Shown here piece after piece: positions 34,060 through 49,657 of a stretch of 64,000 bases of DNA; positions within the stretch are counted from its first letter, which is position 1, and each line of letters opens with the position of its first letter. The position numbers and the translations under genes were made by a program. Location: contig CAWELD010000010.1 of the NCBI GenBank assembly GCA_963809895.1, positions 320,001-384,000 of the forward strand, read 5' to 3'. The DNA comes from an uncultured Gemmatimonadales bacterium. Its GTDB lineage: Bacteria; Gemmatimonadota; Gemmatimonadetes; Longimicrobiales; Gaopeijiaceae. The notes beneath the pieces were generated by a model that did not search any database, was not told the origin of the DNA, and worked only from the letters and a program-made list of their open reading frames with translations.

Positions 34060-34463
34060 ACTCGTTCCTGCGCTCGGTGCGCGTGGGGAAGACGGCACGT
34101 CAGGACCCGTCGCCAGCACACGGCGCGGGCATCGGACTTGATCGTGCTTGGCCGACGCTCGGTTCGTGGCCGCACGATACGACAGGCGCACGGCCAAACG
34201 GTCTCGCGCGACCAGCTCCGCTTCCTCACCATGCACCCCTCATCTGTGATGGGTTCGACAACACCCGCGCCGCCACGCATCGAACGCGGGACGGATTCAC
34301 CGAAGGGTAAAGGTCCTGTTGTGAAGTCCAGGGCAAGAGGGGATCGGCTCCAATCGCTCAAAGGGGTAAAGAGCGACGTGGCACACTTGAAGGGTATCTG
34401 TCTGCCGTGGGTAGCGAAAGCCTCATCAGCCATGAGATAGCTGGCTTCTTGAGGACTCAGTGA

Positions 34464-35200
34464 GCTTCGCCGAATCCGGGCCGGTTCTCATCCGGCCGTC
34501 CCTCCTTCGGCTCCCGACAACGACGAAGGCTCCTCGACCGATGTGGTCGAGGAGCCTCAGTCGGGACGGCCGGATGGAGCTGCGGTGGCCGCTGGCGCGG
34601 CCATCCTCGCTCGCCTCGCGACGGGGGGCGGGTGGGCCTGACGGGGTGGCTAATTGGTCGCTCGGCTCGAACCGGCGATCCGTCTTCGGCTTCGCCGAAT
34701 CCGGGCCGGTTCGAACCGGGGGAGAATGAAGAGAGGCCCGCGGCAGTCGCCGCGGGCCTCGTAATCGGGACGGCCGGATGGAGCTGCGGTGGCCGCTGGC
34801 GCGGCCATCCTCGCTCGCCTCGCGACGGGGGGCGGGTGGGCCTGACGGAGTAGTGAGTCGGTCGCTCGGCTCGAACCGGCTACCCGTCTTCGGCTTCGCC
34901 GAATCCGGGCCGGTTCTCATCCGGCCGTCCCTCCTTCGGCTCCCGACAACGACGAAGGCTCCTCGACCGATGTGGTCGAGGAGCCTCAGTCGGGACGGCC
35001 GGATGGAGCTGCGGTGGCCGCTAGCGCGGCCATCCTCGCTCGCCTCGCGACGGGGGGCGGGTGGGCCTGACGGGGTGGCTAATTGGTCGCTCGGCTCGAA
35101 CCGGCGATCCGTCTTCGGCTTCGCCGAATCCGGGCCGGTTCGAACCGGCGCGGCTCGAGAACGAAGAAGGCCCGCGGCGAGTCGCCGCGGAGCCTCGTAA
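34464..35200 (-). repeat. tRNA-linked repeat array (about 3.5 units of 204-225 bp) downstream of tRNA-Pro
   Basis: TCGGGACGGCCGGAT at 34561, 34765, 34990 and in the tRNA at 35201; 34464-34719 nearly identical to 34893-35148. Confidence 0.9.
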
Positions 35201-35274
35201 TCGGGACGGCCGGATTCGAACCGGCGACCCCCTGAACCCCATTCAGGTGCGCTACCGGGCTGCGCCACGTCCCG
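35201..35274 (-). tRNA. tRNA-Pro(GGG)
   Basis: Cloverleaf: CGGGACG/CGTCCCG acceptor, CCTGA-ATGGGGT-TCAGG anticodon arm. Confidence 0.95.
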
Positions 35275-35285
35275 AGACGGGCAGA

Positions 35286-36305: not shown

Positions 36306-36335
36306 TTGACACCCCCCTGGCCGAACGGGTATACT
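36306..36335 (+). promoter_or_regulatory. Sigma70 promoter of the tRNA array
   Basis: TTGACA-N18-TATACT followed by GC-rich discriminator TGGGGCCC. Confidence 0.8.
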
Positions 36336-36346
36336 TGGGGCCCTGT

Positions 36347-36420
<74 letters not shown>

Positions 36421-36494
36421 TTTTGGAGCGCCGCCGGGTCTGGGCGGCGTTTCCCACGTTTGAGAGTCACGCCGAGGCGCCGGAGAGATCGACG

Positions 36495-36617
36495 ATGCCG
36501 TTTTCCCTGAGTCCGCGAACGACCGAGCGTGCGCGCACGGACGCGTCGCAGGCCCGTGGGTTCACGGTGGCGGACACCTGGTCTAGCCAGCATCGGGTGG
36601 GGGTTGGCGAGCGGTAG
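36495..36617 (+). CDS. Putative leader peptide, 40 aa (MPFSLSPRTTERARTDASQARGFTVADTWSSQHRVGVGER)
   Basis: GGAGAG 7 nt before ATG; 3' end overlaps antiterminator arm. Confidence 0.6.
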   Translation: MPFSLSPRTTERARTDASQARGFTVADTWSSQHRVGVGER

Positions 36618-36653
36618 CATTGCGACCGTCTTCGCTTGAAGAGCCCCGCCCGA
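36593..36653 (+). promoter_or_regulatory. Putative antiterminator hairpin
   Basis: TCGGGTGGGG (36593-602) pairs with CCCCGCCCGA (36644-653); inner GGCGAG/TTCGCT and CGGT/ACCG stems. Confidence 0.65.
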
Positions 36654-36679
36654 GCCCGAGTGGCCGGGCGGTTTTTTTT
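36646..36679 (+). terminator. Intrinsic terminator inside the tRNA array
   Basis: CCGCCCG-A-GCC-CGAGT-GGC-CGGGCGG followed by T8. Confidence 0.85.
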
Positions 36680-36681
36680 CC

Positions 36682-36754
36682 GGCCAGGTAGCTCAGTTGG
36701 TAGAGCACACGACTGAAAATCGTGGTGTCGGCGGTTCGATTCCGTCCCTGGCCA
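36682..36754 (+). tRNA. tRNA-Phe(GAA)
   Basis: Cloverleaf; CACGA-CTGAAAA-TCGTG. Confidence 0.95.
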
Positions 36755-36792
36755 TGAAAAAGCAGGACGACACCGCCCCGAGCGGAGTCCAG

Positions 36793-36865
36793 AGGTCCGT
36801 AGCTCAATTGGTAGAGCACCGGTCTCCAAAACCGGCGGTTGGGGGTTCGAGTCCCTCCGGGCCTG
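36793..36865 (+). tRNA. tRNA-Trp(CCA)
   Basis: CCGGT-CTCCAAA-ACCGG. Confidence 0.95.
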
Positions 36866-36907
36866 TGATACGGCCGGAGTGTGGCCTGCCCCTGGGGGTG
36901 GGTAGAG

Positions 36908-36979
36908 GCCCCCATCGTCTAACGGCTAGGACACCACTCTTTCAAGGTGGCGGTCGGGGTTCGATTCCCCGTGGGGGCA
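36908..36979 (+). tRNA. tRNA-Glu(TTC)
   Basis: CCACT-CTTTCAA-GGTGG. Confidence 0.95.
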
Positions 36980-37008
36980 TTGATCAACGTTGGAATTGCA
37001 GGGAGTTT

Positions 37009-37082
37009 GGGGCTGTAGCTCAGTCGGTTAGAGTGCCGGTCTGTCACACCGGAGGCCGCGGGTTCGAGTCCCGTCAGCCCCG
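37009..37082 (+). tRNA. tRNA-Asp(GTC)
   Basis: CCGGT-CTGTCAC-ACCGG. Confidence 0.95.
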
Positions 37083-37165
37083 CTGGACGTTGTTTGAAAT
37101 CTGGTGCGAGCGGTCGATCCTTTCGGGGATCCCCTCGTGCTTTCGGGTCATCGGAATGAAAGGCT

Positions 37166-37238
<73 letters not shown>

Positions 37239-37278
37239 CTGGTCCGCGGGTGCGCCGTGAGGCGTGCCCCGGTGCCGG

Positions 37279-37362
37279 GCTCGGGTGGCGGAATTGGTAG
37301 ACGCGCAGGATTCAGGATCCTGTGGGGGCAACCCCGTGAGGGTTCGAGTCCCTCCCCGAGCA
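37279..37362 (+). tRNA. tRNA-Leu(CAG)
   Basis: CAGGA-TTCAGGA-TCCTG; long variable arm. Confidence 0.95.
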
Positions 37363-37429
37363 CTGCTTCGGTTCGCTTGAGGCAGCGTCGGTCACCCTCG
37401 CCAGGTGCCGACAAACCGATAGGAAGGTC

Positions 37430-37513
37430 GCCCACGTGCTGGAATTGGTAGACAGGCTGGTTTGAGGGACCAGTGCCGGAAACGGCGTACAGGTTCGAGT
37501 CCTGTCGTGGGCA
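37430..37513 (+). tRNA. tRNA-Leu(GAG)
   Basis: CTGGT-TTGAGGG-ACCAG; long variable arm. Confidence 0.95.
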
Positions 37514-37527
37514 CTCCTGGCGGGCGC

Positions 37528-37601
37528 GCGCCCGTAGCTCAATTGGATAGAGCGTTTGACTACGGATCAAAAGGTTGGGGGTTCGAGTCCTCCCGGGCGC
37601 A
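37528..37601 (+). tRNA. tRNA-Arg(ACG)
   Basis: TTTGA-CTACGGA-TCAAA. Confidence 0.95.
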
Positions 37602-37629
37602 TCTCGTGTTGAAGGGCACAAGGGGATTC

Positions 37630-37703
37630 GGGCGCGTAGCTCAGTTGGTTAGAGCGCTACGTTGACATCGTAGAGGTCAGAGGTTCGAGTCCTCTCGCGC
37701 CCA
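37630..37703 (+). tRNA. tRNA-Val(GAC)
   Basis: CTACG-TTGACAT-CGTAG. Confidence 0.95.
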
Positions 37704-37713
37704 TGCGAAGGCT

Positions 37714-37786
<73 letters not shown>

Positions 37787-37796
37787 CTCCAGACCT

Positions 37797-37869
37797 GCCA
37801 CCATAGCTCAGCTGGTAGAGCACGTCACTCGTAATGACGGGGTCGTCGGTTCGAGTCCGACTGGTGGCT
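37797..37869 (+). tRNA. tRNA-Thr(CGT)
   Basis: CGTCA-CTCGTAA-TGACG. Confidence 0.95.
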
Positions 37870-37903
37870 CTGGCCGGTCGGGCGAAGCCCGGCTCTGATG
37901 TGG

Positions 37904-37976
37904 TGCCCCGTGGTGTAATTGGCAACACGCCGGATTCTGGCTCCGGAGAGTCTAGGTTCGAGCCCTAGCGGGGCAA
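37904..37976 (+). tRNA. tRNA-Gln(CTG)
   Basis: CCGGA-TTCTGGC-TCCGG; T1-A72. Confidence 0.95.
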
Positions 37977-38015
37977 TCTTCACCGCCGACGTCGGATGGA
38001 TCGGCGGAATCCTGG

Positions 38016-38101
38016 GGAGGGATGGCCGAGTGGCTTAAGGCGGCGCCCTGCTAAGGCGTTGGGCCGAAAGGCCCGCGTGGGTTCGAATCCCACTCCCTCC
38101 G
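38016..38101 (+). tRNA. tRNA-Ser(GCT)
   Basis: GCGCC-CTGCTAA-GGCGT; long variable arm. Confidence 0.95.
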
Positions 38102-38146
38102 TTCGATTCCTTCTTCGGGATCCCGTCTCGAGGTTGGATGCTTCCT

Positions 38147-38230
38147 GGACGGGTGGCCGAGCGGCTTAAGGCGCACGATTGGAAATCGTGTGGGCGAAAG
38201 CCCACGTGGGTTCGAATCCCACCCCGTCCG
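38147..38230 (+). tRNA. tRNA-Ser(GGA)
   Basis: CACGA-TTGGAAA-TCGTG; long variable arm. Confidence 0.95.
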
Positions 38231-38285
38231 TTGCTGATCGAGAAAGCGGGAGTGAGAGTGGGCTTCTCACCCACGGAAGGCTGTT

Positions 38286-38359
38286 CGGGGCGTGGCTCAG
38301 TCCGGTAGAGCGCTGCGTTCGGGTCGCAGAGGTCCCCGGTTCGAATCCGGGCGCCCCGA
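38286..38359 (+). tRNA. tRNA-Pro(CGG)
   Basis: CTGCG-TTCGGGT-CGCAG. Confidence 0.95.
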
Positions 38360-38378
38360 CTTTGGTTGGTTCAGGCAG

Positions 38379-38464
38379 GGAGGGGTGCCGGAGATGGTCG
38401 AACGGGCCCGCCTCGAAAGCGGTGCGTGCGAAAGCACACGGGGGTTCGAATCCCTCCCCCTCCG
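38379..38464 (+). tRNA. tRNA-Ser(CGA)
   Basis: CCGC-CTCGAAA-GCGG; long variable arm. Confidence 0.93.
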
Positions 38465-44998: not shown

Positions 44999-46993
44999 TT
45001 AGACGCCGCGCAACTCGTGGATCAGGCCCACCACGGCCTCCGCCGTCACGCCGAGCTCCTGGAACAGCACCTCCGCAGGTGCAGACGCTCCGAAGCGGTC
45101 CACTCCCACCGCCGCACCGGGTCTGCCGGTCCATCGCTCCCAGCCTCGGGTGATTCCCGCCTCCACGGCGACACGTAGCCTGACGTTGGACGGCAATACC
45201 GACTCCCGGTAGTCGGCGTCCTGCATCTCGAACAGGTGCCAGCTCGGCAGGCTGACGACGCGGGTCGGGATGCCCTCGGCTTGAAGGGTTCGGCGCGCGT
45301 CCAGCGCCACCGCGACCTCCGAGCCCGACGCCAGCAGGAGCGCCTCGGGCGAGCCCCCGTCGGCTTCGGCGAGAACGTAACCGCCTCGGCGCAGCCCGCC
45401 GGCCGAAGCCAGGGAGTCGCGGTCCAGGGCCGGCACCTTCTGCCGCGTAAGCGCGAGAAAGGAGGGGCCGTCGGCCGCCATGGCCATCTCCCACGCCACC
45501 GCGGTTTCGGCCGGATCGGCGGGCCGAAGGTCCGTGAGGCCCGGGATGCAGCGCAGGCTCATGAGTTGCTCGACGGGCTGATGGGTCGGACCATCCTCGC
45601 CGAGGCCGATGGAATCGTGGGTGAAGACGTAGACGACGGGCTGCCCCATGAGGCTCGCCAGGCGGATGGCGGGACGCATGTAGTCCGAGAAGATCAGGAA
45701 GGTCCCGCCGAAGACGCGCAGCCCTCCGTGTAGCGCCAGGCCGTTCAGGATGCCTCCCATGGCGTGTTCCCGGATCCCGAAGTGCAGGATCCTCCCGCCG
45801 GGGTTGTCGGCCTCCAGGTCGCCGCCACCCTTGATGTCGGTCTTGTTCGACCCACTGAGATCCGCCGACCCTCCGATGAGCTCGGGAATGCGGTCGGCCA
45901 GGCCCTGGATGACCTTGCCCGAGCTGCTCCGGGTGGCATCGGGCTCATGGAGCTCGGGAAGGCCCGCCCGCCAATCCCCCGGCAACTCGCGCCTCATGAC
46001 CGTGCGCTCGAACTCCTCGGCGAGGGCGGGGTGCGTCTCCCGGTACGCGTTCCAGCGCTCCCGCCAGCCGGCTTCCAGCCCGGCGCCCCGCTCGCGGGCC
46101 TCGAGCCACTTGGCCCGTGCCTCGTCGGGGACGAAGAAGGGTTCCTGCGACGGATACCCCAGGTTCTCCTTGGTACGACGTACCTCTTCGGTACCCAACG
46201 GCGACCCGTGCGCCGCGGCGGTATCCGCCTTGCCCGGGCTTCCCCAGGCGATGGTGGTCCGCAGCACGATCAGGGTGGGTCGCTCCCGCTCGGCCCGCGC
46301 TTCGGCCAGCGCCTGATCGATGGCGGCCAGGTCGTTGCCGTCGTGCACGTGGAGGACCTGCCAGCCGTAGGCCTCGAAGCGCAGGGCGTGATCGGTGGAA
46401 GTGGCGAGGTCGGTGTGGCCCTCGATGGTGATGTGGTTGTCGTCGAAGACCCAGGTCAGCTTGCCCAGGCGTTGGTGCCCGGCGAAGGCGGCGGCCTCGT
46501 GGCTGATCCCCTCCATCAGGTCGCCGTCGGAGCAGAAGGCGACGGTGTGATGATCGACGATGTCGTGGCCCGGGCGGTTGAAGTGCGTCGCCAGCCATCG
46601 CTCGGCCAGCGCCATCCCCACGGAGTTGGCGACGCCCTGGCCCAGGGGGCCCGTGGTGGTCTCCACGCCTGGTGTGTGGCCGTACTCGGGATGTCCCGGG
46701 GTCCGGGAGCCCCACTGGCGGAAGTTCTCGATCTCCTCGAGAGGGAGGTCGTATCCGGTCAGGTGGAGGAGGCTGTACAACAGCATCGACGCGTGCCCGC
46801 ACGACAGGACGAACCGGTCCCGGTCCACCCAGTCCGGGTTGGCGGGGTTGTGCCGGAGGTGTCTCGTGAAGAGCGAGAAGCCCGCCGGCGCCAGCGCCAT
46901 GGGCGTTCCCGGGTGTCCAGAGTTCGCTTTCTGGACAGCGTCCATGGAGAGGACGCGCACCGCGTCGATGCAGAGACGTTCGAGATCCGTCAT
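44999..46993 (-). CDS. tkt: Transketolase
   Basis: [39 protein letters not shown]. Confidence 0.97.
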
Positions 46994-49480
46994 GAACCCA
47001 CCACGAAATTCAGGAGTCGGTCGGGCACGTGGATCACGCGCCGCACCGTCGCGCCCTCGAGATAGCGCGCGACATTGTCTTGCGTCCGGGCTTCGGCCTC
47101 GGCCACGTCCTGGTCGGCTCCCCGGGGCAGCGCCACCGTGGCGCGCAGCTTGCCGTTCACCTGCACGGCGACCTCCACCGTGTCTTCGCGCGCCTTGTCG
47201 GCGTCGAAGGCCGGCCAGTTGGCACCCTCGAAGATGCTGCGCTCGTGGCCGAGCACGGACCAGAGCTCTTCGGCGACGTGCGGTGCGAAAGGGGCCACCA
47301 TGACCACCAGGGCCTCGACCTCGGACCGGGTCGCGGTGCGCCCGCCCGCCCGCACCACGTTCAGGTACTCCATGAGGGCGGCGACCGCCGTGTTGTACTG
47401 GAGCTCGGGCAGTTGCGCGGTCACCTGGCCGATGGTCTGGTGGAGCTTCCGTTCCACCTCGGGATCGGGGTCGCCGTCGCTCGCGCCGTGGACCGTGTCC
47501 CACAGCCGGTGCAGGAAGCCGAAAGGCCCCTGGATACCCTCGTCCCGGTAGTCGCCGCCCTCTTCGAAGGGCCCCAGGAACATGAGGTACAGGCGAAACG
47601 TGTCCGCCCCGTATTCCTCGATGATGGGGTCCGGGACGATGACGTTCCCCTTGCTCTTGGACATCTTCGCCCCTTCGCGGATGATCAGGCCGTGGGCCCG
47701 GAACCGGGTGAAGGGCTCCTCGAAGTCCAGGTGTCCCAGGTCGTGCAGCACCATGGTGAGGAAGCGGCTGTACATCAGGTGCAGCACGGCGTGCTCGTTG
47801 CCGCCGATGTAGGTGTCCACAGGCAGCCATCGGCGGGTGATGTCGGCGTCGAACGGGCGGTCGTCGAAGTCCGTGGACGGGATAGCGCAGGAAGTACCAG
47901 CCCGAGTCCAGGAAGGTGTCCGACACGTCGGTCTCCCGGCGCGCCTCACCCCCGCAGCGCGGGCACTCGGTGCGGTACCACTCCTCCACGCGGGCCAGCG
48001 GCGACACGCCCGTGTCGTCGGGCTTGAAGTCCTCGACCCGAGGGAGCACCACCGGCAGGTCCTCTTCCGGGACCGGCACGGCTCCGCACTCGTCGCAGTG
48101 GATGATGGGGATGGGGGGCCCCCAGTAGCGCTGGCGGGAGATGCACCAATCGTGCAGACGGTAGTTCACGCGCAGCTCGCCCAGCCCGCGCTCTGCCAGC
48201 CACTCCGTGACGGCGGTGATGGCGTCGTCCTTGGTCAGCCCGTCGAAGCGCGCGGAGTTCACCAGGACGCCGTCGTCGGTCCACGCCTCCTCCAGGGGCG
48301 TGTCGGCCCCATCGCCGGGCCCCGCGACCACCCGGCGAATGACCAGTCCGAACTCGCTCGCGAACTCGAAGTCCCGGCTGTCGTGACCGGGCACCGCCAT
48401 GATGGCTCCCGTTCCGTACTCCATGAGCACGTAGTCGGCGATCCACACGGGGATGGCCTCGCCCGTGGCCGGATTCCGGCAGTGGCCACCGGTGAACACG
48501 CCCGTCTTCGTCTTGTCCGCCTTCTGCCGGGCCACCAGGTCCATCTTCTGGGCCTCGGCACGGTACGTCTCGACCTCGTCGCGACGGTCTGACGTGGTGA
48601 GCCGATCCACCAGGGGATGCTCGGGCGCAAGCACCATGAAGGTCGCGCCGAACACCGTGTCGGGGCGGGTGGTGAAGACCCGGATGCCAGGCTGGTCGTC
48701 GGACGCGGTCACGGTCTCCGGGGCCACCGGTGACGGCGGCATTCCGCCATCCAGCAGCGGAAAGACGAGCTCCGCCCCCTCGCTCCTGCCGATCCAGTTG
48801 CGCTGGGCCTTGGTGGTGGTCTCGGACCAGTCGAGGCCGTCCAGGTTGTCGAGCAGCCGCTGGGCGTAGCGGGTGATCCGGAAGAACCACTGGGCGATGC
48901 GCCGCTGCTCCACCGGCGTGTCGCACCGCTCGCAGCGTCCGCCGATGACCTGCTCGTTGGCCAGCACCGTCTTGCAGGACGGGCACCAGTTGACCGGAGC
49001 TTCCTTGCGCTCGGCCAGGCCGGCCTCGAAGAGCTTCAGGAAGACCCACTGGGTCCACTTGTAGTAGGCCGGATCGGTGGTGTCGACGGTGTGGGACCAG
49101 TCGAACATCCCCCCGATCCGCCGGAGCTGACGCGTGAAGTTCGCCACGTTGCTGGGGATGAGGTCCATGGGATGGAGGCCCATCTTCAGCGCGAAGTTCT
49201 CGGAATGGATGCCGAAGGCGTCGAAGCCGATGGGCTCGAACACCTGGCGACCCCGCAGGCGCTGGTAGCGCCCGTGGACGTCGGCGCCGGTGAAGGCATA
49301 GATGTTCCCGACGTGGAGCCCCTCGGCGGAGGGGTAGGGGAACATCATCAGGTTGTAGAAGGGCCTCTCGGTCTCGCGCAGCCCGTCCAGGGTGAACCGG
49401 TTCGTGCCGCGCTCGTCCCAGGCTTTCTGCCAGGTCCGCTCCACCTCGGAGGGGACGTAGGCCGTACCGTCGTGCGCCAT
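46990..49480 (-). CDS. leuS: Leucine--tRNA ligase (frameshift near 47880, probably sequencing error)
   Basis: MFPYPS, HVGN (HIGH), [30 protein letters not shown]. Confidence 0.95.
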
Positions 49481-49657
49481 GACTCGCGTTCCAAGTGGCG
49501 ACGGTCCCGGGCTCGAGACCACCCGATGGGTGGCGTCGGCGGGCGGGACCGTCGCGGGGTTCCGTTCCGGAGTTCCGAGAAACCGTAAGCTAAAGGGGGT
49601 GTCCAGCCCATACAACGGACCTGTCGGCGTCTCGCGTCCGTCCGTGGGTCGCTCGAC

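What the first reader, a model, noticed from the sequence alone, without database searches (positions are those of the whole stretch)
36495..36617. Leader codons mirror the anticodons of the downstream tRNA array
Counted by hand: the leader has codons read by 15 of the 16 downstream tRNAs (all but Leu-GAG). Of codons 2-32, before the antiterminator arm, 27 of 31 are decodable by array tRNAs, although the array covers only 26 of 61 sense codons under standard wobble. It uses five different Ser codons, covering all three array Ser tRNAs. Lys, Asn, Ile, Tyr and Cys are absent from both leader and array. Inference: instead of a run of one codon, the leader samples the whole product pool, giving feedback on tRNA supply. 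Caveat: these tRNAs also read codons that are common in a GC-rich genome.
Basis: partly seen in the sequence, partly recalled or inferred. Interest (0 to 1): 0.85.

Follow-up and report, generated by a model that had tools for sequence, protein, structure and literature searches.

The report
Ribosome-controlled valve on tRNA operon
A tiny conserved gene and a switchable stop signal sit in front of 16 tRNA genes of this bacterium and probably let it make more tRNA when ribosomes read those tRNAs' codons slowly, a control well known for amino-acid operons but not found in print for tRNA genes.

Summary
The counts are right (27 of 31 codons, 15 of 16 tRNAs) and exceed chance (0.2-0.5% of gene windows). 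The ORF is real: 91 of 117 tRNA-fMet/tRNA-Phe spacers of the family (Longimicrobiales, Gemmatimonadota) keep it, with a core W/F-x-x-A/S-D-T-W-S, pN/pS 0.13-0.26, and a stop inside an antiterminator that competes with a U-tract terminator. Folding with a moving ribosome gives a sharp switch 2-5 codons after the Trp. Homologous leaders are biased to array-read codons (0.76-0.78 against 0.59), and the bias follows a larger array in a sister family (0.87 against 0.76; five held-out leaders 118 of 136). But it is confined to the last 20 or so codons, many leaders are too short to cover the pool, the peptide core is conserved as peptide, and 45 of 55 leaderless relatives keep a terminator. Verdict: ribosome-mediated attenuator of a tRNA operon (0.85); input probably decoding speed on array codons (about 0.6); strict whole-pool mirroring overstated. 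No expression data. The scan noted the same layout before in another Gemmatimonadota genome and in phages; not found in print.

The parts
36306..36335 (+). sigma-70-type promoter (11 of 12 consensus), followed by a G+C-rich stretch before the tRNA
   Evidence: a loose promoter pattern is present upstream of the tRNA-Met in 105 of 155 spacers (no control). A stringent-type discriminator is inference only.
36346..36421 (+). tRNA-Met(CAT), by its unpaired first position and three G-C pairs in the anticodon stem the initiator tRNA; lies ahead of the gate
   Evidence: initiator identity read from the sequence with recalled identity rules
36426..36452 (+). stable hairpin directly after tRNA-fMet; would cap the 5' end of the leader RNA once the tRNA is cut off (inferred), or pause RNA polymerase
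   Evidence: a hairpin at this place in 10 of 10 relatives folded
36482..36487 (+). Shine-Dalgarno-like GGAGAG, 7 bases before the ATG
   Evidence: most homologs have a purine-rich site before an in-frame start
36495..36617 (+). leader ORF, 40 codons, TAG stop
   Evidence: conserved under purifying selection; single copy in the genome
36561..36587 (+). conserved core, codons 23-31 (F-T-V-A-D-T-W-S-S here; W/F-x-x-A/S-D-T-W-S in the family); Trp codon at 36579-36581
   Evidence: pN/pS 0.13
36593..36653 (+). antiterminator helix: G-rich arm in the last leader codons (36594-36603) pairs with the 5' arm of the terminator (36644-36652); the stop codon lies inside it; -37.3 kcal/mol
   Evidence: three-way compensatory changes in L109 and L142
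36646..36679 (+). intrinsic terminator: stem 36646-36671 (-20.0 kcal/mol) and 8 U at 36672-36679, ending 2 bases before tRNA-Phe
   Evidence: found in 99 of 103 leader-bearing spacers; arms invariant in 27 aligned sequences
36682..38464 (+). array of 16 elongator tRNAs (Phe, Trp, Glu-UUC, Asp, Ala x2, Leu x2, Arg-ACG, Val-GAC, Thr-CGU, Gln-CUG, Ser x3, Pro-CGG); each anticodon occurs once in the assembly, and Phe, Trp and Asp have no other tRNA gene

Best explanation
A ribosome-mediated transcription attenuator that meters tRNA synthesis. One promoter makes tRNA-fMet, the leader and 16 elongator tRNAs. While RNA polymerase moves through the spacer, a ribosome translates the leader. If it gets about 2-5 codons past the conserved Trp in time, it covers the G-rich arm, the terminator folds and only tRNA-fMet is made. 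If it lags, the G-rich arm captures the 5' arm of the terminator first and the 16 tRNAs are transcribed. The roughly 20 codons before the switch point are written mostly in codons of the array's own tRNAs, most strongly in the W/F-x-x-A/S-D-T-W-S core that rests on the genome's only Trp, Phe and Asp tRNAs, so a shortage of these tRNAs opens the gate: multivalent feedback on tRNA supply, weighted to a core, not a one-to-one census of all 16. Shown by computation: ORF conservation and selection, two exclusive folds, switch position, codon bias. Inferred: translation, termination, the timing race, the signal and the feedback.
For: ORF with core motif, stop 9-14 codons after the Trp and 57-98 bases before tRNA-Phe in 92 of 130 distinct spacers (91 of 117 in the family). 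pN/pS 0.13 in the core and 0.26 upstream over 60 nearest-neighbour pairs. Terminator probability in the window 0.00 with the A site up to Trp+1, 0.77 at +2, 0.97 or more from +4; above 0.5 in 37 of 37 genera from +4. Before the last arm is made, the 5' arm is held by the leader arm in 37 of 37 genera at Trp-1/Trp and in 4-5 of 37 at +5/+6. Array-read share from codon 2 to Trp+3: 1760 of 2261 in 88 homologs (0.78; 36 of 38 genera above 0.596), shifted frames 0.52 and 0.56, after the switch 0.50; genus-weighted 0.764 against 0.590 in genes of 19 relatives, with 0.15% or fewer of 2000 random 16-tRNA sets doing as well. One leader per 42 unrelated N-terminal clusters: 0.67 against 0.59; positions -17 to -7 0.72. 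Sister family with 21-tRNA array: 0.865 against 0.759, five held-out leaders 118 of 136; the 7 codons its array adds make 0.106 of codons against 0.060 in this family (13 and 39 genera, p 0.007; 0.13 in genes of both); Tyr 1 of 2248 against 6 of 526. In the core, C/G third-base swaps that leave the array are rarer (11 of 162) than those that stay (18 of 63). A his-leader attenuator reports codon speed and charged-tRNA level in vivo (PMC4046918, abstract and section 7).
Against: No transcript, footprint or reporter data. At equilibrium with all arms present the terminator still wins in 17-25 of 37 genera for ribosomes upstream of the switch, so read-through there depends on folding order. The arm pairing beats all 30 shuffles of the same stretch in only 35 of 100. 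45 of 55 leaderless spacers keep a hairpin plus U run, so tRNAs get past such a terminator without a leader. Upstream of the core the bias is modest (permutation p 0.02-0.045 against genes), absent beyond -17, partly a general NCG preference, and C/G swaps show no boundary effect (10 of 87 against 17 of 137). Array-to-array amino-acid changes are also suppressed, and core positions -7 and -4 are array-read in only 0.53, so peptide identity matters as such. In the sister family 7 of 19 leaders lack the Trp, and its core uses non-array CGG. G406 and G373 moved tRNA-Arg(ACG) elsewhere yet keep its codons. Kin are not independent; p values overstate.
Confidence: 0.6

Rival explanations
1. Same attenuator, but the core is a nascent-peptide arrest motif that responds to something else (free Trp or another metabolite, a translation factor, an antibiotic or damaged ribosomes); the codon bias is secondary.
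For: Ordered core with free synonymous change (Asp GAT 51, GAC 39); pN/pS 0.13 and suppressed array-to-array amino-acid changes; Asp at -2 holds in 16 of 19 sister-family leaders where Trp holds in 12; W...D spacing equals TnaC W12/D16 (PMC8429421 passages); start-to-Trp distance clusters at 28-31 codons in 52 of 103.
Against: First Trp is F, L, T or G in 19 of 92 including this window; leaders with only 7-13 codons before the Trp exist (21 of 103); does not explain the bias at -17 to -7, the rise of Gly/Tyr codons with the larger array, or CGG at 1 of 57 CGN codons in frame against 16 and 15 off frame in the sister family's N-termini.
Confidence: 0.2
2. A general sensor of ribosome speed or of transcription-translation coupling (growth-rate control); which tRNAs read the leader is incidental to GC content, NCG preference and RNA structure.
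For: In the window any ribosome position before Trp+2, and no ribosome, gives the antiterminator; GCG and TCG are raised like ACG and CCG upstream of the core, and wobble-read rare codons (TCT, GAT, CGA) are raised throughout.
Against: The bias is frame-specific (0.705 against 0.550 and 0.589 upstream of the core), stops at the switch, beats random tRNA sets, and shifts with array content.
Confidence: 0.1
3. One reading: the leader is a census of all 16 tRNAs along its whole length.
For: 15 of 16 here; mean coverage 12.6 against 10.3 expected.
Against: 15 of 16 in only 11 of 89; Leu-CAG and Gln-CUG codons missing from about half; leaders of 20-25 codons; background level beyond -17.
Confidence: 0.04
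4. The terminator is leaky or is passed by protein-mediated antitermination or an internal promoter; the ORF encodes a small protein or is not regulatory.
For: 45 of 55 leaderless spacers keep a terminator-like hairpin, including 9 of 9 in the third family; whole genera lack the ORF.
Against: Fixed spacing between core, stop and terminator; the C-terminal codons vary as RNA, not as peptide; three-way compensation of the arms; in the third family the leaderless stems are weak (-11 to -14 against a mean of -20.6 kcal/mol).
Confidence: 0.06

Closest known systems
Leader-peptide transcription attenuators of amino-acid operons (hisL, pheL, trpL; multivalent thrL and ilvGMEDA leaders; pheM-pheST)
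   Same: Short ORF whose stop lies in an antiterminator that excludes an intrinsic terminator; a lagging ribosome gives read-through (hisL: PMC4046918 section 7; pheL: start of abstract of PMC3082878; the others recalled).
   Different: Gated genes are tRNAs, not enzymes; no run of one codon; an ordered peptide core; only a weak protector hairpin (antiterminator forms without a ribosome in 31 of 37 genera, whereas the his attenuator terminates without translation); leader is cotranscribed behind tRNA-fMet; no Rfam, Pfam or NCBIfam match.
Salmonella tufB autoregulation (Brandis 2016, seen only as a table row in PMC12360218)
   Same: Ribosome speed feeds back on transcription of a component of the ternary complex.
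   Different: Rho-dependent, sensor is the start of tufB itself, output is EF-Tu; the tRNA genes of that operon lie upstream of the control point (recalled).
TnaC and other arrest peptides (PMC8429421 passages; PepNL, PMC11890864 abstract)
   Same: Conserved W-x-x-x-D in a leader peptide that controls termination.
   Different: TnaC loses function with any change of W12 and with D16E; here the first Trp is often F/L and is F in this window. Stop lies 11-16 codons after the Asp with no conserved Pro before it; terminator is intrinsic.
T-box riboswitches (PMC7778990 passages)
   Same: tRNA status decides between terminator and antiterminator.
   Different: No Stem I, no UGGN bulge inside the antiterminator, no RF00230 match; sensing runs through a translated ORF.

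Membership tests
Ribosome-mediated leader-peptide attenuator | Short translated ORF upstream of the gated genes | tested here: met
   SD and start, conserved frame, pN/pS 0.13-0.26; translation itself not observed
Ribosome-mediated leader-peptide attenuator | Intrinsic terminator between ORF and gated genes | tested here: met
   (99 of 103)
Ribosome-mediated leader-peptide attenuator | Antiterminator overlapping the ORF end and exclusive with the terminator; ribosome position selects the fold | tested here: met
   computed folds, compensatory changes in L109, L142
Ribosome-mediated leader-peptide attenuator | Control codons related to the product of the gated genes | tested here: met
   bias to array-read codons before the switch, none after; no run of one codon
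Ribosome-mediated leader-peptide attenuator | Protector hairpin giving termination when the leader is not translated (trp/his type) | tested here: not met
   without a ribosome the window folds the antiterminator; 31 of 37 genera do so before the last arm is made
Ribosome-mediated leader-peptide attenuator | Condition-dependent read-through shown in cells or in vitro | not testable with these tools
   no usable RNA data
Described leader families (Rfam trp/his/leu/thr/phe leaders; Pfam/NCBIfam leader peptides) | Match to the family model | tested here: not met
   best E 0.46, unrelated sRNA; 1 of 47 members, E 0.12, unrelated; 0 of 47
TnaC-type Trp-sensing arrest peptide | Invariant W12 and D16 | tested here: not met
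   W at -6 in 73 of 92, F in this window; D to E in 2 of 92 against PMC8429421
TnaC-type Trp-sensing arrest peptide | Ligand-dependent stall at the stop codon | not testable with these tools
   needs toeprinting
T-box riboswitch | Stem I with specifier and UGGN bulge in the antiterminator | tested here: not met
   no Rfam T-box hit at E up to 10; the UGG of the Trp codon lies outside the antiterminator helix and changes in 7 of 19 sister-family leaders

The most novel reading that the evidence does not exclude
A cellular tRNA operon that regulates itself by translation: the leader is tuned, codon by codon, to the tRNAs it gates (and was retuned when the array gained or lost Gly, Tyr, Thr and Glu tRNAs), so the cell holds elongator tRNA supply against ribosome demand, and against constitutive tRNA-fMet, through a multivalent attenuator. 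With the phage cases noted by the scan this would be a general, undescribed class of tRNA homeostat.
Probability: 0.5. Interest if true: 0.9.

Novelty: new variant of a known kind. Interest (0 to 1): 0.8.

Why it matters
Bacterial tRNA synthesis is thought to be set at the promoter (growth-rate and stringent control; own knowledge). How cells match tRNA amounts to codon demand is open. Here a chromosomal operon holding a third of the tRNA set, with the only Phe, Trp and Asp tRNAs, appears to be gated after initiation by the speed at which ribosomes read those tRNAs' codons. The element is 260 bases long, has more than 100 natural variants from 20 to 44 codons, natural losses, and a sister family with a different array, so the feedback idea can be tested directly in vitro or in a reporter, and could serve as a portable sensor of tRNA supply.

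Tried and rejected
RNA runs: 23 listed, none holds half of the words; best share 0.21, in line with conserved tRNA stems of other organisms; no expression evidence was obtained. Whole-spacer folding z-score -0.95, uninformative. Rfam, Pfam, NCBIfam: nothing. Second copies: none in the own genome (4 other hits, E 0.44 or worse, no tRNA near); in 301 genomes of the phylum the 18 hits with E below 1e-4 all lie at the array, and of 12 weaker loci checked 1 was the array. Two other families of the class: 1 of 61 and 3 of 61 genomes matched at E 1e-33; three of these loci start His-Trp-Glu right behind a promoter with no leader seen: not found in those searched. The 250 bases upstream of 20 other tRNA loci of the genome showed no leader plus terminator by eye. 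The raw stay-in-array z-scores (9.3) were discarded because they mix in selection for synonymous change; replace them. Trp-only sensing: rejected as sole input since 7 of 19 sister-family leaders lack the Trp and one codon before the switch gives little delay (inference). Ser TCT/AGC exchange at +1 is a codon deletion, not a two-base switch. Leu at -6 in four Leu-AAG genomes is one clade and was not counted as covariation. Ser TCT, alternative-frame mini-ORF ending in TAG: not conserved in W-S-P leaders.

Full report
Observation. The ORF at 36495-36617 has 40 codons. It lies between a sigma-70-type promoter plus tRNA-Met(CAT) and a terminator that ends two bases before an array of 16 tRNAs. 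Against 3183 genes called in the own genome, array-read codons are 59.6%; 27 of 31 is reached by 0.22% of gene windows, 0.5% when the cut-off is free, and 0.09% of stop-free non-gene stretches; the whole ORF (29 of 39) by 6%. Each array anticodon occurs once in the assembly (95% complete), and Phe, Trp and Asp have no other tRNA gene.

Lineage and spread. Record titles of tRNA-linked pattern hits place the element in Longimicrobiales, Gemmatimonadota. 209 of 314 family genomes match the locus. I read the 30 loci each search returned and 80 further regions chosen across genera, which favours close matches; the largest genus (50 matching genomes) was sampled 6 times and none of the 6 has the leader. 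Of 130 distinct fMet-Phe spacers, 92 carry [DE][TSAP]W in an ORF that stops 9-14 codons later and 57-98 bases before tRNA-Phe (91 of 117 in the family). The Trp count is circular, as it was the search key; the rest is not: W at -6 in 73, A/S at -3 in 83, D in 90, T in 82, S at +1 in 88 of 92. N-termini differ freely in sequence and length (7-32 codons before the Trp). In the sister family f3 19 of 45 spacers carry a related leader, picked by eye on an A/V-D-S/A core, with Trp in 12 of 19; in family f2 0 of 9. One of the 130 spacers (L014, leaderless) comes from the unpublished genome G025; it enters only the totals 130, 55 and 9.

The ORF is under selection as a peptide. Over 60 nearest-neighbour pairs (ungapped, single-base codon changes only) pN/pS is 0.13 in the core and 0.26 upstream. 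Length changes near the core are whole codons. 78 of 103 leaders stop at TAG against 608 of 3183 genes, which fits the stop being part of a helix.

The RNA switch. The G-rich end of the ORF pairs with the 5' arm of the terminator (-37.3 against -20.0 kcal/mol here). The terminator arms are invariant in 27 aligned sequences; where they change, L109 and L142 change all three arms together, and L405 does so by eye. I removed the RNA covered by a ribosome at each codon and folded the rest. With all arms present the window gives terminator probability 0.00 up to Trp+1, 0.77 at +2, and 0.97 or more from +4; 37 of 37 genera terminate from +4, but 17-25 of 37 also do so at earlier positions. Folding only what exists before the last arm is made, the 5' arm is captured in 37 of 37 genera at Trp-1 and Trp, in 10 at +4 and in 4-5 at +5/+6, and in 31 of 37 with no ribosome. 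So this is a race: the ribosome must pass about Trp+2 to +5 in time. The 9-15 base ribosome cover is an assumption and shifts the point by one codon either way.

Is the race tuned to the array? For this I used 89 family leaders (L060 and L099 dropped for want of a credible start; six degenerate leaders left out; eight starts set by hand) and 14 f3 leaders. From codon 2 to Trp+3, 1760 of 2261 codons in 88 homologs are array-read (0.78); core 0.915, upstream part 0.70, after the switch 0.50, shifted frames 0.52 and 0.56. Against genes from 19 of 20 relatives' 20-kb samples (0.590; one gave no genes), intergenic DNA, gene starts and shifted frames, the real 16-tRNA set beats all but 0.05-0.15% of 2000 random sets from 42 anticodons; for the upstream part alone p is 0.02-0.045 against genes. 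With one leader from each of 42 unrelated N-terminal clusters the share is 0.67; positions -17 to -7 give 0.72 and positions further up 0.61, the background. All eight amino acids without an array tRNA are below their gene frequency (Tyr 1 leader of 89), yet Lys and Ile occur in 26 and 25 of 89. The f3 array has 21 tRNAs, adding Gly-GCC, Gly-CCC, Thr-GGU, Tyr and Glu-CUC. Its leaders give 0.865 against 0.759, and five leaders fetched afterwards 118 of 136. The seven added codons are 0.106 of f3 leader codons and 0.060 of family codons, with 0.13 in the genes of both. In f3 N-termini CGG, the one CGN codon the array does not read, occurs once in frame against 16 and 15 off frame.

What speaks against a tight mirror. 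Upstream of the core, C/G swaps that leave the array are as common as those that stay (10 of 87, 17 of 137), and GCG and TCG are raised like ACG and CCG; in the core the boundary shows (11 of 162, 18 of 63; p 4e-5 at the loosest threshold, 0.07 at the strictest), mostly through Thr-ACG and a Pro-CCG that may also be structural. Amino-acid changes between array codons are suppressed too. The f3 core uses CGG in 8 of 10 C/G Arg codons. G406 and G373 carry tRNA-Arg(ACG) elsewhere but keep CGA/CGC/CGT in the leader. Coverage is 15 of 16 in only 11 of 89. And 45 of 55 leaderless spacers still end in a hairpin with a U run, so the gate can lose its leader and the tRNAs are still made by some route. 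Related genomes are not independent, so all cross-genome p values overstate.

Reading. A leader-peptide attenuator on a tRNA operon is very likely (0.85). Its input is most likely decoding speed over the last 20 or so codons, which are weighted to the array's tRNAs and end in a fixed core (0.6). The core may add a peptide-dependent pause or be the true sensor (0.2). Such a switch cannot tell too few tRNAs from uncharged tRNAs; in starvation promoter control would have to override it (inference). tRNA-fMet sits before the gate, so initiator supply is constant while elongator supply is metered.

Literature. Ten full-text searches found no attenuator or uORF controlling bacterial tRNA genes and nothing on Gemmatimonadota; the library lacks most subscription journals, and no supplements were opened. 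Seen: PMC4046918 abstract and section 7; PMC8429421, PMC12360218, PMC3082878, PMC7778990, PMC10424219 passages; PMC11890864 abstract. trpL, thrL, ilv and pheM facts are recalled. Earlier notes of this scan describe the same fMet-ORF-terminator-21 tRNA layout in another Gemmatimonadota genome (e1-7863468) and codon-matched leaders before phage tRNA arrays; I read them after my first reading, which gave mirroring only 15%; the rise to about 0.6 comes.

Noticed in passing
L006, L008, L009, L010, L012 (same genus) and L133: The second Leu tRNA of the array has anticodon AAG (A34, presumably inosine) in place of GAG. In the five same-genus loci its body resembles tRNA-Leu(CAG), in L133 tRNA-Leu(GAG): two separate origins. 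A34 outside tRNA-Arg is rare in bacteria (recalled).
   Followed up: partly
L387, L389, L390, L391, L393, L394 (family f3), spacer before tRNA-Phe: One or two extra copies of the first 15-20 bases of tRNA-Phe, each followed by a short shared hairpin-like repeat, as if a small element inserts at this tRNA.
   Followed up: no
L406, L407 (G406, G373): tRNA-Arg(ACG) has left the array and sits about 500 bases from tRNA-Arg(CCG).
   Followed up: partly
window 34426-35275: Long direct repeats next to tRNA-Pro(GGG) that include pieces of the tRNA end; visible as repeated translations.
   Followed up: no
window 44999-49615 (+): One 1538-codon ORF begins like leucyl-tRNA synthetase, drifts into low-complexity sequence and ends like transketolase (motifs recalled): probably a frameshift or assembly indel joining two genes.
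   Followed up: no
G009 (one contig, 93% complete), G011, G019: No match to the array or to its tRNA-Arg(ACG); an assembly gap is the simplest cause.
   Followed up: no
L088, L089, L107, L125, L133, L139: Leaders with the right geometry but a changed core (for example S-W-G-T-S-T-N-P-W, or no Trp at all); natural variants for testing codon against peptide.
   Followed up: no
L084: Three tandem tRNA-Pro(CGG) copies in the array.
   Followed up: no
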